Shown: positions 3,001 to 12,000 of the stretch, piece after piece
How positions within the stretch are numbered: position 1 is the stretch's first letter
Layout of the letters: every line of letters begins with the position of its first letter
Sequence record: OR786310.1
Source of the DNA: Escherichia phage ETEC-TG
DNA: 64,000 nucleotides
Strand: one strand, 5' to 3'
Program-made: the position numbers

Positions 3001-6000
3001 CATGGCTAACACGGCTAAAATTGAATTATCCAGCATTGAGGCGGTGCATATTAGCGCCCGTCGCTGGTTTCAACGGTCCTACGGTAACACATATTTTTCT
3101 TTAATGGTTGACGTTGAGATCGGCGGTAAACTGATCGAGGTGGTTAACGTTCCGTTTCAATATGGCTATGGTGATCATTTTGATACCGTTGCCCTAGAAG
3201 AGTTTAGCAAGGTTATCAACCTGGAAGGTAAAGAGTTTTCAAATTATGCCTACCTTTCCCGTTTTTGCCGTGACAATGGGATCACTGTATACAGTCATGC
3301 AAGCGATGTAAAACGTAAAAAAGATTTATAAAAAGCATTGACAGCACGAATAGAAAGAGTAAACTATATTACATAGAGAGCGGGAACACTTCCCGCCTCA
3401 CTGAAAAAGAGAGAAAAATCATGGCTAAATCTAAAATGTACAACGGTCACAAAAACAAAAATCATTGGAATGTAAGCCTTTGGATTAATAACGATGAATC
3501 GTTATACCGGTTGGCCCAAGATTTTATTAACGCTAATGCTAATCGTAATGATGCGGCGCGGGATATGATGCTTTTTCTGGAACAAACTGGACAAGATAAA
3601 ACGCCAGACGGTTTCAAATATAGCACTACTGCGATCCGTGCCGCGATGGTTGGAATGTAATAAAAACAGTTGACAACGTTTAAAATTAGTGTAAGATGTA
3701 TCACATAGGGCGGGAAGTGGTTTCCCGCCAAAACAGAGAGATTAAAGATTATGGCTATCAATATTGTTCGCGTATCTGGCACCGTTGGCACTTCCCAGGT
3801 CATTGCCGTTGTAACAAACAAAAAGATTAATGATGTATGTGAGATCTTGAATAAGTGGGCTGTTGCTAATTTTGGGGAATATGCAAGCGTTGAGTACATC
3901 GAATCCTACCAGGTGCCAACCATCAGCCTAACCGATCTCAACGTTGATCGCCTGTTATGCCTGGACGAATTAATCTGAAAAAGATTGTTGACACCGGAAA
4001 GAAAAAGAGTAAACTGTATTACGTAGGGCGGCAATGGTGCCGCTCACAACAGAAGAGAGATTATTACGATGGCCAATATCCGCACACTGTTAAAAAATGC
4101 AAGTCAAGTTTTATTTTCAGATGACGAGTATTTCAATAAAGACATTACAGGCGTGAAGAATATCAAAGATGTAAAAAGTGTTATGGGTATATATTGCAAT
4201 GTTAAACGTGTTGGAACGTTCGGTGATAAAGTATTGTATCAATCAGGTGATTACAATTTTACTTTGACGATTATTTCATAAAACCGCTTGCAATACTGCA
4301 AAAATAAAGTAAACTGTATTACATCAAGGCGGCGGAATGGTCCACCGCCTAACAAAGAGAAGAGGAAAACACCATGATCACTTTCGCTACCCGTGAAGCC
4401 GCTCGCAACGTTGCCCGTAAAATTAACGCCGCCAACCTGGGCGCTACGTTTAAAGCACCTGTAAAAGATGAATCAGGCAAATGGATCTTCCCTGGTCTGC
4501 GTCATGCTGACAAGTTAGGTACTTTAAGCCTTAAAAAATAATCGTTGACTTTTCGTTATAGCGCCTTACAATGGGCGCTATAGAGAAGAGAAACCACTAC
4601 TAACAAGGAAACATCATGATCACTTTCGCTATTGTCGCCGTTGTCGCTGGTCAGGTTTACGTAAACGATACATTCACCACAGAAGACAAGGCCGCAGGAG
4701 ACATAACCGCCGTTTACAATGAGTGCAAGGCAGTAGAAAGGATGTTAGCGCCTTGTATGCTAATGAGTGAACGCCAGGACGGGATAACAGTGTTTACTAA
4801 CATTGAGACAGGGTACCAAATGGTAGTAACAAAATAAAGCTTGACACGGATTTAATTTTCAATAAACTGTTACACGTAGGGCGGGAATAGTTCCCGCTAA
4901 AAAGAGAGAAAGACCATGAAAGCACAAAATGCAATTAAAGAGTACATCCTTGCCGCTATCGATTTTAATGATTACGGTATTACAACCGAAAAAGAGAAGA
5001 TCGCGGAATTGATGCGCCGTTTTAATTCCGAGTACTGGTACCCTGATAACCAATCACGTTTTAATTATAGTATTGTTAAAGCACTTGCATCATGGTTACA
5101 AGGTTTGCCATCAGATATTAATATCGCTTTCGAATATTGGGAAATTGATCGCTTGTTAACATCCTGGGGATACATTAAAGAGAATAGCAGCGATGATAAA
5201 ATCCAACGAGAAAGGGAAAATTATTGGCTTTATATTGCAGGCGTGATCCTTGCTTGCTCTTATGAATGATAAACCTTGACAATTTTACAAAACAGTTTAA
5301 ATTAATAATATAGCGGCAATGGTGCCGCTCATATAAAGAGGAAACAAAATGAATACATCTAATCGCGCAGAAAAAATCCAATCTTCCAAGATCCGCAAGG
5401 CCTGGAACGAGGAAGTGATCCGCAAAGGCGACAAGCGCAATAAAACAAAGCGCGGGAAGAGTGACAAATATAATTGGATGGATTTAGAGGATTAACATAA
5501 CAAGGGCGCACCAAGCGCCCTTTCTTTTTACATGTAGAGGATAAACAAAGATGACTTTAAGCGAGCTTAAAACAGCCTACAGCGCAACATTAAAAATAGC
5601 CGTGCGTTACCGTGACGAATACGGTTTTATTGCGCAGGGCGTGATCCTGGGCTTTTCTGATGATGGTTTGATCTATGTTGATGCACATCATAACAAGGTA
5701 AAACCTGAAAACATCATTAGCATAAAATATCTTTAAAAGTGGTTGACACTATAACTGGACCTGTTAAACTGTATTACATCAGGCGGGGAATAGTTCCCCA
5801 CCATACAAAAAGGTAAATATTATGATCACCGCAAAACAAGAAAAAATCATTATCGACGTTGCAGCCGTTGCCGCTATTGCTATTATTGGATCTTATTATG
5901 ATACCCGTTTCCCGTCGGCTATGCATGAGGTCGCCGCCGTTGCATCAGTTGGCGTACTGTTTTACGTTGGTAAACGCTATTTATCACCAATGATTAACAA

Positions 6001-9000: not shown

Positions 9001-12000
9001 CCAACTTTTAGGAATGGTTGCAGCAAATGCAGAGCTTGCTTACTATGTTGAAAATTTTGATGAAGCTGTAATCTTTACAAAATAATCCTTGATCTAATCT
9101 CTTAAATAACTTATATTTAATGCGTAGGGCGGCAATGGTGCCGCCGATAATGAGGAAAGTAAAATGGAAACTATCGCTATTGTTACCGTAGAAAAACTGG
9201 TTGTTGGTGATGTATTCGCGTTAATGGTGCCTAACAGCAGCAAGCTGGGCGCTTATGAAGTAATGGATCATAAAAATGAATCATTTGGCGACGGTTGCAC
9301 AATGGCGGTAAAATCTTTAAAAGATGGAATCATCCGCCAGGCTAACTGGCACAAAGGGAATCAAGTCGGTTTAATATCAGCTAATTTCTTGCCAGAAGAG
9401 CAAACATTAGATCAACTATCAGGCGGTAAGACGTTAGCCGAACTACTGGAAACAGCGATCTAATCGACAAGGGGGCGGCAACGCCCCCCATTAAACGCAA
9501 TAGGAAGAGGATAGACACATGAAAAAGATGATCGCAGTAGTTGCCCTGGTTGTTGGTATTAACGCGCCTGTAATGGCGAAAGAGTTGCCAGAATCCATCA
9601 CGTTAACCGATATTAACGCCGTGAACCGGATCGGTGTTAATTATCGCCTATGCCTTGCCGCTAAAACTTTCCAGGACGGCACAACAGAGTACTACGGATT
9701 CGAGGGTGTCCGGTGCGGTGAGCTTGCACGCGACCTTAAGGAAGATCCAGACCTTGAGGCCATACCGATGACCGTAAACGGTAAAGCCCAGGTAAACCGC
9801 TAACCATGAGAAAGGTAATCATCACAATGGGGATCGTAGTAGCAACGCTGGCGCTTATTCCCTTCCTGGTTGAATATGTGCTGATTAATGTTGTCCTGGT
9901 AGTCAGTGACCTATTGGAAACGGTTGGCAACTGGTTTTAAAAATAAATAAACAGGACTTGTTTTTGTCCTGTTTTTTGTTATACTTATTGAACGGGCGGC
10001 ACTTGGGAGCAGGTGAAGATAATCACCGGAAGATTCCGCTATATATCGATAGCTAATACCTATCAAACAACAAAACATCAAAGAGATAAACTATCAAATC
10101 TTTACAATCCTACATATTGACCGATAAATCACAACAGTTTAATATTGTTTTCAGAGGTTAAAATATTCCCCAAACGAAAACAGGAAAAAGAAAATGAAAG
10201 AAGTCATGATCCTCAAAAAATCACCTATTTTACGTGGCGGTTTTATCGCTTACTCTGATGATCTGTTAATTGCAACAGTTGCAAAAATACTAAAATCAGA
10301 AGATGACAGTAAAAACGGCGTTTATCGTATCTGTTTCACCCGTGGAAAATTACAAGGTAAGATCGCTTATGCCTTTGACTTACAAGATGTAAACGATAAA
10401 ATATGCGCTGTTATTGATTATGCAAAATAGTTAATTTTCTTATTGACACCGGATCACGCTTGCATTATTATTTATCACGTAGGGCGAGCAATACAGCAAG
10501 CCCACAAAGAGGAAAATAAAATGAGCAAATCAGCAATTAAAGCACTTGAAAAAGCACAAGAAGTGATCGCAACGTCCACCACTGGCGCAAAGGTTAATCT
10601 CGTTGGTTATCTGACAGATGAAACTATCCGTAAAAATTGGCGTAATGCTGATTTACTGGCTTGCTTATTGATTAATAGTGTCGCTAATGCTTTCCAGTGT
10701 GAAACAGCCGAGAGCCTGGAGGAAAACTTGTTTGATAATATGGATCAAGCCATTGAAACCTATATACAATCAAACCTGGATAGCTGGAACAGTAAAACAT
10801 GGCCCGACAATTTACGCGATACAACTGATCAACTGATCCGCCTTGCTGTGATGGTTGAACGCGATAACGTTTACAACAGCACAAAGTAAGATTATACAAG
10901 GGCGCACCAAGCGCCCTTTAACGTAAAGAAATGTAAATAATGCGCTATCCCCTATTGACAGGGGATCGGCGTTATATTATATTTAACTCACTGGCAGCAA
11001 ACAACGAAACGAAACAAAGGATAACACTATGAACATTAAATCAAATAATCCAGCTTACTCCTTCGATAACGCTTTTTGTCACGGTAGCGCCGCCAAAGGC
11101 TTCGAAATCGATGGTAAATTGGTTATCGTGAACGTTGACGGGGAAGAGGTTGCAGTGTATCCGGTAAACGATGTTAAAAGCCGTTTACAATGCCGTATGG
11201 ATGTTACCGCATATCAGCTTGATCCGATCCGTGTAGTTGCCCTGGTATTAGAGGAAGAGATCAAAGCAATGCATCACAGTAATAAGTTTATTGGTGACGC
11301 GCAGGATAATATGAACGTTTGCCGCCATAAAGTTAATGAAGCACTGAAAGAATGCGGTTTTAAGGATCTGATGATCAAACGTGATGAAAAATTCCGCTTT
11401 CGTAATGACCTGGCAAACCGGATCTACTCAATCTATGAAGCGTTATAATTGACAACAAAACAAGGGCGCACCAAGCGCCCTTTCTTTTTGCCCGAACAAT
11501 GTTGATAGCTTTCGCCTATGAAAAACCGACACAGAACAAAATTGAATAAATCGCGGTATCGAGCTAATCAACCATTAAACGAATAACCATACACCCCAGG
11601 GCAACAGGCTGTTAGAGAGCTATTTATAGCGGTTAAAATCGATCAACAACCAACAACAAACCATCAAAAACATCCTTTTACCTCCTTTCTAGTGCAATGA
11701 TAACCATTATCATCTATACATGATTATATATGCAATGTAAGCGCATAATTATAATGTTGATAACAGTTCGCAACAACTAACCAACAAACAACATAAAACA
11801 ATAAGCAAACTAATCATAATCAAAGGAATAATAGCAAGATGATTGATAACAACAAACAATCAAACCATAATGAATACTAAGCAAGATAACGATAACACGA
11901 CAAAACAACCAACTAACGAACAATAACAAACGAAACCATTAAAATAATAACTATTAGCAAAATAGTGTCTGAATGAAATCATTACAAAACGAATCATTCC

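What the first reader, a model, noticed from the sequence alone, without database searches (positions are those of the whole stretch)
5503..11481. Same terminator hairpin reused three times on the plus strand
AGGGCGCACCAAGCGCCCT occurs at 5503-5521, 10900-10918 and 11463-11481, each after a small gene. Together with the promoter cassettes this gives complete portable promoter-gene-terminator units.
Basis: seen in the sequence. Interest (0 to 1): 0.35.

Follow-up and report, generated by a model that had tools for sequence, protein, structure and literature searches.

The report
Repeated terminator hairpin bounding swappable phage genes
Three identical copies of a small terminator-like hairpin close three single-gene units in the early region of an E. 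coli phage, and related phages have gained, lost or swapped genes exactly at these hairpins; this is ordinary phage regulation that also serves as a gene-shuffling seam.

Summary
AGGGCGCACCAAGCGCCCT occurs exactly three times, all on the + strand, with none expected by chance. The window is a Phapecoctavirus (phAPEC8-like, about 150 kb E. coli myovirus).

Each copy sits 6-13 nt after the stop codon of a small gene that has its own sigma-70-type promoter. Copies 1 and 3 have a canonical TTTCTTTTT tail. ARNold already annotates their orthologues as terminators in phAPEC8 and Schickermooser. Copy 2 has a poor tail (TTTAACG) and scores as a weak terminator or none.

New here is the comparative result: each copy is a homology breakpoint in at least one relative.
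- The promoter-orf139 cassette between copies 2 and 3 is absent from at least four phages, leaving one hybrid hairpin.
- Three alternative genes precede the same final hairpin.
- The promoter-orf122-hairpin unit occurs at 91% identity in an otherwise unalignable Avunavirus.

Best reading: these are paralogous intrinsic terminators that also act as short-homology crossover points. They resemble the PeSL cassettes of T4-type phages. Termination itself was not tested. The biology is known, the phage group is new for it, and interest is modest.

The parts
5502..5529 (+). Hairpin copy 1 (8-bp stem 5502-5522, loop ACCAA) plus TTTCTTTTT tail. Predicted intrinsic terminator closing the promoter(5276)-orf48 unit and the upstream multi-promoter array.
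   Evidence: The orthologue is annotated as an ARNold terminator in Schickermooser and phAPEC8. It is a deletion breakpoint in SF1-1.
10898..10928 (+). Hairpin copy 2 (stem 10898-10918) with a poor tail, TTTAACGTAAAG. Predicted weak terminator or attenuator. It is the left boundary of the orf139 cassette and the right boundary of the orf122 unit.
   Evidence: negative score. Not annotated as a terminator in relatives. HSP ends fall at 10919 in anhysbys and Avunavirus 18-1-2.
11462..11489 (+). Hairpin copy 3 (stem 11462-11482) plus TTTCTTTTT tail. Predicted terminator at the end of the whole early array, in front of a 1.5-kb ORF-free region. It is the constant right boundary of a variable last-gene slot.
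   Evidence: ARNold terminator in relatives. Homology resumes at 11460 in 5 of 11 loci. Positional equivalents with other stems occur in rV5 and UPEC06.
5276..5495 (+). Unit 1: sigma-70-type promoter (TTGACA-16-TAAATT, 5276-5303), 5'-UTR stem-loop (5312-5329), and orf48 (5349-5495, basic 48-aa protein, phrog_2490).
5551..5736 (+). orf61, which starts 29 nt after copy 1 with an RBS but no promoter of its own. It is conserved, with substitutions biased to the third codon position. This implies read-through of copy 1.
   Evidence: phrog_25271.
10443..10889 (+). Unit 2: promoter (TTGACA-17-TATTAT, 10443-10471), imperfect 5'-UTR stem-loop, and orf122 (10521-10889, phrog_15368).
   Evidence: The whole unit including copy 2 is shared with Avunavirus at 91%.
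10955..11448 (+). Unit 3: promoter (TTGACA-17-TATATT, 10955-10983) and orf139 (11029-11448, phrog_12277). The cassette is absent from anhysbys, Ec-G1, nepoznato and ASO2A. The ORF is shared with rV5-like Vequintavirus at 88-91% aa identity.
9949..9980 (+). A different terminator-like hairpin (AAACAGGAC...GTCCTGTTT plus a T run), the only other hairpin with a T tract in the array. It is also a recurrent homology breakpoint.
   Evidence: ARNold terminator in phAPEC8 and Schickermooser.
11490..12989 (.). ORF-free region downstream of copy 3, conserved among relatives. It contains AC-rich repeats and Fur-box-like repeats, and is included here as context.
   Evidence: An equivalent 'non-coding' box is described in rV5 (PMC3606486).

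Best explanation
The three hairpins are paralogous copies of one rho-independent terminator module in the host-RNA-polymerase-transcribed early region of a phAPEC8-like phage.

Copies 1 and 3 (GC stem plus UUUCUUUUU) stop early transcription. Copy 1 closes a 4.5-kb run of about 12 promoters, probably incompletely. Copy 3 closes the whole array in front of a long non-coding region. Copy 2 kept the stem but lost the U tract, so it is at best an attenuator.

The same 24-31 nt sequence is repeated in direct orientation and shared among related phages. It therefore also serves as a short-homology crossover point. Recombination between copies, within one genome or between co-infecting phages, deletes, inserts or replaces the single gene that lies between a promoter cassette and a hairpin.

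What is shown: the sequence, the fold, the positions, the conservation and the breakpoints. What is inferred: termination itself, its efficiency, and the recombination mechanism (passive short-homology exchange rather than a dedicated enzyme).
For: Anatomy:
- Exact triplicate, 0 expected by chance.
- Stable 8-bp GC stem with a 5-nt loop.
- TTTCTTTTT tails at copies 1 and 3 are detected by the terminator scan and score positive in a d'Aubenton-Carafa-type discriminant; copy 2 scores negative.
- All three copies lie just after stop codons on the coding strand.

Prior annotation: ARNold calls the orthologues of copies 1 and 3 terminators in phAPEC8 and Schickermooser, and Paula and ASO2A also annotate them.

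Structural constraint:
- Across 17 loci the stem GGGCGC/GCGCCC barely varies (an extra 5' G in many copies, one GC insertion in Schickermooser), while the loop takes 6 forms.
- At the positions of copies 2 and 3, Vequintavirinae carry hairpins with different stems: GGGGCC-ATAT-GGCCCC, GGGCCGC-TATT-GCGGCC and GGGGC-TTAG-GCCCC+TTTCTTTTTG.

Shared descent rather than convergence: the loop and the ACAA/TTT flanks are identical in the three copies, although loops are free to vary.

Breakpoints:
- anhysbys, Ec-G1, nepoznato and ASO2A carry one hybrid hairpin, with the left flank of copy 2 and the right flank of copy 3, and lack 10920-11459.
- These cassette-minus genomes are interspersed among cassette-plus ones in trees of both flanks.
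- Homology resumes at 11460 in ukendt, 536P1, SF1-1 and ZCKP1, where a phi92-gp248-like gene replaces the last gene.
- 536P1 keeps the promoter up to 10485 and the hairpin from 11460, with a different gene between them.
- Avunavirus 18-1-2 shares only 10441-10919 plus the hairpin and tail.
- SF1-1 fuses copy 1 to the 5'-UTR hairpin at 6081 through the microhomology GCGCCC.
- 3 of 41 breakpoint clusters lie within 5 nt of a copy, p about 0.002.
- Junction tallies: orf139|hairpin in 48 records, gp248-like|hairpin in 71, and orf122|hairpin+T tract in 12.
Against: - No transcript data exist for this phage group, so termination is only predicted.
- A conserved gene directly after copy 1 has no promoter, which argues against efficient termination there.
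- Copy 2 fails the U-tract criterion.
- Within Stephanstirmvirinae the stem shows no compensatory changes, so structure is supported only by invariance and by non-homologous hairpins at equivalent positions.
- Breakpoints also fall at many other places: promoter cassettes, other hairpins, and even a 14-nt coding microhomology in nieznany. The hairpins are therefore one class of seam among several, not a special site.
- Gene-sparing breakpoints are expected to be intergenic anyway, which inflates the apparent association.
- The trees are unbootstrapped NJ trees on short alignments.
Confidence: 0.75

Rival explanations
1. The hairpins are mainly 3'-end RNA stability or processing barriers (blocks to exonucleases) rather than sites where polymerase stops. 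Transcription reads through, and the stem only defines and protects mature mRNA 3' ends.
For: - Copy 2 has no U tract yet is conserved in every cassette-bearing genome.
- orf61 after copy 1 needs read-through.
- About 19 of 24 early mRNAs also carry a 5' stem-loop without a U tract, which suggests a general strategy of hairpin-capped messages.
Against: - Copies 1 and 3 carry a conserved TTTCTTTTT tail, which a mere stability hairpin does not need. The same tail is kept behind a different stem in rV5.
- Copy 3 is followed by 1.5 kb without genes, so read-through there would serve nothing obvious.
- The two roles are not mutually exclusive.
Confidence: 0.12
2. The identity of the three copies is convergent: selection for one optimal terminator sequence. 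The coincidence with indel boundaries merely reflects that viable rearrangements must fall between genes.
For: The same stem and tail (GGGCGC-N5-GCGCCC-TTTCTTTTT) occurs in 39 IMG/VR contigs. Most are unrelated and fall into several independent flank families, so this is a commonly reached design.
Against: - The loop and the unpaired ACAA flank are also identical among the three copies, although relatives show six loop variants.
- Hybrid hairpins join the left flank of copy 2 to the right flank of copy 3 with the HSPs overlapping across the hairpin core (locus 10131-10155, 25 nt).
- The p of about 0.002 is for falling within 5 nt of the copies, and intergenic space is far larger than that.
Confidence: 0.08
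3. The hairpins, together with the promoter stem-loops, are recognition sites of a dedicated recombination system, PeSL-like or integron-like. This system excises single-gene mini-circles and moves them between phages.
For: - Precise cassette boundaries at the repeats.
- Exchange across subfamilies, Stephanstirmvirinae to Vequintavirinae.
- Precedent of PeSL mini-circles in RB49 and phi1 (PMC2839356).
Against: - No recombinase or nuclease was linked to the elements here.
- Other deletions in the same region use unrelated microhomologies: 6 nt in SF1-1 and 14 nt inside coding sequence in nieznany. This fits a general short-homology mechanism.
- Circles cannot be tested in silico.
Confidence: 0.05

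Closest known systems
Rho-independent (intrinsic) transcription terminators of E. coli and its phages, as predicted by ARNold or TransTermHP
   Same: GC-rich 6-8 bp stem, 5-nt loop and a U-rich tail immediately 3' (copies 1 and 3), located right after a stop codon on the coding strand. The orthologous sites are already annotated as such in phAPEC8, Schickermooser, Paula and ASO2A.
   Different: Copy 2 lacks the U tract. The three copies are sequence-identical paralogues rather than independent terminators. No functional assay exists.
PeSL (promoter-early stem-loop) regulatory cassettes of T4-type phages (Arbiol et al. 2010, PMC2839356; Comeau et al. 2014, PMC4122927)
   Same: Repeated regulatory motifs (sigma-70 promoters and GC stem-loops) crowd a region of small genes of unknown function. 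Insertions, deletions and replacements between close relatives have their boundaries at these motifs. Genes move together with their own expression signals.
   Different: - The phage lineage is different (Stephanstirmvirinae and Vequintavirinae, not T4-type).
- The repeated terminator is a separate 24-31 nt element at the 3' end of a gene. It is not fused with a promoter into one element of about 100 nt; only copy 2 lies about 37 nt upstream of a promoter.
- The promoter-associated stem-loops lie downstream of the -10 box (5' UTR) and lack U tracts.
- Mini-circles have not been tested.
Short conserved boundary or linker sequences at module junctions of lambdoid and other mosaic phages (author's knowledge of the modular-evolution literature, not checked here)
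   Same: Short shared sequences between genes mark the junctions where otherwise unrelated segments are joined.
   Different: Here the shared sequence is a functional-looking terminator repeated within one genome. It therefore also supports intragenomic deletion between direct repeats.

Membership tests
Rho-independent terminator | Stable GC-rich stem-loop (about 5-14 bp stem, 3-8 nt loop) | tested here: met
   8-bp stem (6 G-C pairs) with a 5-nt loop, -14.7 kcal/mol or better, z = -3.9 to -4.9, for all three copies.
Rho-independent terminator | U-rich tract immediately 3' of the stem | tested here: inconclusive
   Copies 1 and 3 meet it, with TTTCTTTTT and a discriminant of +0.5 to +24 depending on where the stem is taken to end. 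Copy 2 does not, with TTTAACGTAAAG and a discriminant of -5 to -34. The scoring formula was recalled from d'Aubenton Carafa et al. 1990, not checked against the paper.
Rho-independent terminator | Intergenic position, downstream of a stop codon on the transcribed strand | tested here: met
   6, 8 and 13 nt after the stops of orf48, orf122 and orf139. All neighbouring genes are on the + strand.
Rho-independent terminator | Transcripts actually end there (in vivo 3' ends or in vitro release) | not testable with these tools
   No transcriptome of a Phapecoctavirus or relative was found in the literature library.
Rho-independent terminator | Structure conserved at the same position in relatives despite sequence change | tested here: met
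   rV5_ev168 and UPEC06 carry different stems after and before the orf139 homologue. rV5 keeps the TTTCTTTTTG tail. Within Stephanstirmvirinae the stem barely varies and the loops vary.
PeSL cassettes (T4-type phages) | Composite element: a strong sigma-70-like promoter and a stem-loop within one conserved unit of about 70-100 nt | tested here: not met
   The repeated hairpin is a stand-alone 24-31 nt unit. Copies 1 and 3 have no adjacent promoter, and copy 2 lies about 37 nt before the promoter at 10955. The separate promoter cassettes do combine a promoter and a stem-loop, but the stem-loop is 3' of the -10 box.
PeSL cassettes (T4-type phages) | Many copies concentrated in a hyperplastic region of small ORFs of unknown function | tested here: met
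   About 24 promoter units and 3 hairpin copies lie in 11 kb of 30-190 aa ORFs. All four ORFs tested fall in PHROGs of unknown function. Relatives have 2-3 hairpin places per genome, all in this region.
PeSL cassettes (T4-type phages) | Indel and replacement boundaries between close relatives coincide with the elements | tested here: met
PeSL cassettes (T4-type phages) | Formation of mini-circles by recombination between neighbouring elements | not testable with these tools
   Needs inverse PCR or long reads from infected cells.
REP/BIME- or MITE-like dispersed repeats | Numerous copies on both strands, also in the host chromosome, or terminal inverted repeats with target duplications | tested here: not met
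   Only three copies, all on one strand. No match in 5,426 complete E. coli genomes. No flanking duplications.
RNase III processing hairpins (as in the T7 early region) | Roughly 20 bp or more of double-stranded RNA, often with an internal loop | tested here: not met
   The stem is 8 bp. Extended folds add only weak A-U pairs. The length requirement is from the author's general knowledge.

The most novel reading that the evidence does not exclude
In phAPEC8-, phi92- and rV5-like phages, the terminator hairpin and the promoter/5'-UTR stem-loops together form a PeSL-like shuffling system that arose independently of the T4-type one. Single early genes, each framed by a constant promoter and a constant terminator, would be exchanged between subfamilies (Stephanstirmvirinae to Vequintavirinae) at rates well above ordinary recombination. 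The exchange might go through excised circles or be stimulated by hairpin or cruciform formation.
Probability: 0.2. Interest if true: 0.5.

Novelty: new member of a known kind. Interest (0 to 1): 0.3.

Why it matters
The hairpins themselves are routine. GenBank records of close relatives already list two of the three as predicted terminators.

What the comparison adds is a clean, base-resolved example, outside the T4-type phages, of regulatory repeats acting as seams for single-gene gain, loss and replacement in an early region of anti-host ORFans. The exchanges cross two phage subfamilies.

This is useful in three ways:
- for annotating cassette boundaries in this widely used group of therapeutic E. 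coli phages;
- for choosing safe insertion or deletion points when engineering them, for example the slot between copies 2 and 3, which is naturally dispensable;
- for picking candidate accessory genes (orf122, orf139, the gp248-like gene) that are evidently swapped in nature.

It does not open a long-standing question.

Tried and rejected
- An exact 19-mer scan of IMG/VR gave 0 hits. A loop-degenerate scan gave 39 hits, mostly unrelated contigs. That shows the stem and tail are a generic design and gave no new relatives of interest.
- Rfam at gathering threshold found no family anywhere in the window.
- E. coli genomes contain no copy of the hairpin, so a host origin or a REP-like nature is rejected.
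- There are no tRNAs in the window.
- Literature searches for transcriptomes or a PeSL-type description in Phapecoctavirus or Stephanstirmvirinae found only routine terminator counts.
- The WPEC2 and WPEC6 loci were fetched to look for a breakpoint at copy 1. They contain many short inverted duplications, possibly from assembly or rearrangement, and their breakpoints are not at the hairpin. They were not used.
- A bidirectional-terminator role was considered, because the scan also flags the minus strand. It was dropped because no minus-strand genes converge on these sites.
- An RNase III site was rejected on stem length.
- Covariation statistics were not attempted within the family because the stem barely varies.
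Full report
**Observation**

The 19-mer AGGGCGCACCAAGCGCCCT occurs exactly three times in the 64-kb window, all on the + strand, at 5503-5521, 10899-10917 and 11463-11481. 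No near-matches exist with up to 3 mismatches, and none appear in 100 dinucleotide-preserving shuffles.

Reading the sequence, the identity covers 24 nt in all three copies: ACAAGGGCGCACCAAGCGCCCTTT at 5500-5523, 10896-10919 and 11460-11483. Between copies 1 and 3 it covers 31 nt, AACAA...TTTCTTTTT. Each copy folds into an 8-bp stem (six G-C pairs) with a 5-nt loop at -14.7 kcal/mol or better, z = -3.9 to -4.9.

**Context**

The region is 95-98% identical to many Phapecoctavirus genomes. These are phAPEC8-like E. coli myoviruses of about 150 kb in the subfamily Stephanstirmvirinae.

Window 1 to about 11,500 is an array of small + strand genes. About 24 of them are preceded by a near-consensus sigma-70 promoter. 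In about 19 cases the promoter is followed, roughly 10 nt after the -10 box, by a GC stem-loop with no U tract (consensus start TAGGGCGG). The stems differ in a compensatory way.

Only four hairpins in the array carry a T run: the three copies, less so copy 2, and a different hairpin at 9949-9974. After copy 3 comes a 1.5-kb ORF-free stretch, and then + strand genes resume at 12,990.

**What each copy follows**

| Copy | Preceding gene | Promoter of that gene | Gap from stop to hairpin |
|---|---|---|---|
| 1 | orf48 (5349-5495) | 5276-5303 | 6 nt |
| 2 | orf122 (10521-10889) | 10443-10471 | 8 nt |
| 3 | orf139 (11029-11448) | 10955-10983 | 13 nt |

All three genes, and orf61 downstream of copy 1, are conserved with third-position-biased substitutions and belong to PHROGs of unknown function. 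This holds for these three genes only; the other units have no terminator.

**Are they terminators?**

- Copies 1 and 3 have the tail TTTCTTTTT. The consensus scan detects them, and they score positive in a d'Aubenton-Carafa-type discriminant. I recalled that formula from memory.
- Their orthologues are already annotated as ARNold terminators in phAPEC8 (record positions 1-17 and 5494-5512) and Schickermooser. Paula and ASO2A annotate them with other predictors.
- Copy 2 is followed by TTTAACGTAAAG. It scores negative and is not annotated as a terminator in phAPEC8 or Schickermooser.
- Across 17 related loci the stem GGGCGC/GCGCCC barely varies; many copies carry an extra 5' G and Schickermooser's copy 2 has a GC insertion. 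The loop takes six forms: ACCAA, ATCAA, ACTAA, ACAAA, AATAA and TTAAT.
- At the equivalent positions in Vequintavirinae, the orf139 homologue is flanked by hairpins with unrelated stems. UPEC06 has GGGGCC-ATAT-GGCCCC upstream of its promoter and GGGCCGC-TATT-GCGGCC downstream. rV5_ev168 has GGGGC-TTAG-GCCCC followed by the same TTTCTTTTTG tail and a 2.5-kb non-coding region.
- The position, the structure and, for the last site, the tail are therefore conserved while the sequence is not. That is the pattern expected of terminators.
- The stem-plus-tail design also recurs in many unrelated IMG/VR contigs with different loops and flanks, so it is a generic solution rather than a specific protein-binding site.
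- No transcript data exist for this group in the searchable literature. Termination remains an inference.
- One caveat: orf61 starts 29 nt after copy 1 with an RBS but no promoter. Copy 1 must let some polymerase through.

**Why are the copies identical?**

Convergence on a good terminator does not explain the identical loops and identical unpaired flanks, because loops clearly drift among relatives. The copies are best read as paralogues spread by recombination.

The same hairpin family follows at least six different genes across Phapecoctavirus, Justusliebigvirus and Avunavirus: orf48, orf122, orf139, a phi92-gp248-like gene, Paula_0082 and Paula_0071. It is absent from 5,426 complete E. coli genomes. 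Relatives have only 2-3 copies per genome, all in this region.

**Cassette boundaries**

1. In anhysbys the alignment to the window runs 10441-10919 and resumes at 11460, and the two HSPs overlap by the 25-nt hairpin. One hybrid hairpin carries the left flank of copy 2 and the T tract and right flank of copy 3. The promoter-orf139 cassette is missing. Ec-G1, nepoznato and ASO2A have the same architecture with different loop and tail alleles. In quick NJ trees of either flank, these cassette-minus genomes are interspersed among cassette-plus ones, which suggests repeated events or reassortment.
2. In ukendt, ZCKP1, SF1-1 and 536P1 the last early gene is instead a phi92-gp248-like gene, and homology to the window resumes at 11460. 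In 536P1 the left boundary is 10485, the end of the promoter cassette. The same promoter and the same terminator thus frame a different gene.
3. Junction-specific searches count 48 records with orf139|hairpin and 71 with gp248-like|hairpin. Twelve have orf122|hairpin+T tract as one piece: six Phapecoctavirus records and six Avunavirus records, with RefSeq and GenBank duplicates included.
4. Avunavirus 18-1-2 (Vequintavirinae) shares with the first 14 kb of the window only 10441-10919 (promoter through hairpin, 91%) and the hairpin plus about 100 nt downstream (80%). Nothing else in a 12.5-kb locus aligns. orf139 alone is shared with rV5-like phages at 88-91% amino-acid identity.
5. In SF1-1, copy 1 is fused directly to window 6081 through the 6-nt microhomology GCGCCC. 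This motif is shared by the 3' arm of the terminator and the 3' arm of a 5'-UTR stem-loop. The fusion deletes two genes.

Over 11 loci, 88 HSP ends collapse into 41 breakpoint clusters in window 1-13,000. Three of these clusters lie within 5 nt of a hairpin copy, one per copy. A uniform null gives this in 0.24% of trials.

Most other clusters sit at promoter cassettes or other hairpins, for example 7876, 8033, 8865, 9110, 9486-9491, 9949, 10441-10485. The terminator hairpin is therefore one of several regulatory seams. nieznany shows a deletion through a 14-nt microhomology inside coding sequence. This fits a general short-homology recombination process rather than a site-specific one.

**Mechanism proposed**

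Early after infection, host RNA polymerase starts at the many promoters.

- Copy 1 stops most of the cumulative transcription from about 12 upstream promoters but leaks enough to express orf61.
- Copy 3 insulates the non-coding region.
- Copy 2 is what remains of a terminator whose U tract now lies behind copy 3. This arrangement is what a crossover inside the 24-nt core between two hairpin-bearing molecules would produce. The direction (insertion or deletion) cannot be fixed from present data.

Recombination between the direct repeats, in one genome or between co-infecting relatives, gives deletion, insertion or replacement of the intervening gene while keeping every gene correctly framed by expression signals.

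**Comparison with known systems**

As terminators they are ordinary and already annotated. As recombination seams they behave like the PeSL cassettes of T4-type phages (PMC2839356, PMC4122927). They are not PeSL members, for four reasons:

- The lineage is different.
- The repeated hairpin is a separate 3' element rather than part of a composite promoter-stem-loop unit.
- The promoter-linked stem-loops lie in the 5' UTR.
- Mini-circles are untested.

A full-text search found the term PeSL in only three papers, all on T4-like phages, so the parallel appears not to have been drawn for this group in the open literature.

**Verdict**

The finding is a new member of a known kind and of modest interest (0.3).

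Noticed in passing
window 298-384 and 11693-12651: The ORF-free stretches flanking the early array carry repeats of AATGATAAnCATTcTCAT, which match the E. coli Fur-box consensus GATAATGATAATCATTATC at 14-16 of 19 positions. There are 11 hits in 64 kb, 8 of them in these two stretches, against a block-shuffle mean of 2.8. They could be Fur boxes, or iterons or operators of a phage protein.
   Followed up: partly
window 996-10505 (about 19 sites, e.g. 1032, 2279, 4877, 6932, 8851): Promoter cassettes: TTGACA-16/17-TAnnnT followed about 10 nt later by a GC stem-loop beginning TAGGGCGG. The stems vary in a compensatory way and have no U tract, so they are probably 5'-terminal mRNA stem-loops. In phAPEC8 these 20-mers are annotated as PHIRE 'promoters'. 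They are frequent homology breakpoints, and one 45-nt promoter (10441-10485) is 100% identical in Serratia phage KKP_3264.
   Followed up: partly
window 5551-5736: A conserved 61-aa gene begins 29 nt after terminator copy 1 with an RBS but no recognisable promoter. This implies read-through or an unrecognised promoter class.
   Followed up: partly
L055 (nieznany) 3983-4216; window 9537-9550 and 11234-11247: nieznany carries a deletion of about 1.7 kb that fuses the 5' end of the 9519 gene to the 3' part of orf139 through a 14-nt microhomology, GTAGTTGCCCTGGT. The result is annotated as one ORF.
   Followed up: partly
window 7518-7541 and 9471-9488: Two further strong GC hairpins without T tracts (-16 kcal/mol) lie in intergenic spacers. 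Both coincide with homology breakpoints in relatives, at 7541 and 9486-9491.
   Followed up: no
L003 (MG065650) and other 'Campylobacter phage' records: Several records labelled Campylobacter phage (B15, A145, C3 and others; B15 is marked UNVERIFIED) are 97% identical to E. coli Phapecoctavirus or Justusliebigvirus genomes. Similar odd labels occur for Acinetobacter, Pseudomonas and Klebsiella. The host labels look unreliable.
   Followed up: no
L056, L057 (WPEC6, WPEC2): These records contain multiple short inverted and direct duplications of segments matching window ~13241-13395 and ~5859-6010 scattered through the early region. This is either unusual rearrangement or an assembly artefact.
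   Followed up: no
window ~30500-31200: The switch from + strand to - strand genes coincides with the GC-skew sign change and with bidirectional terminator-like hairpins at 30864-30887 and 31182-31199.
   Followed up: no
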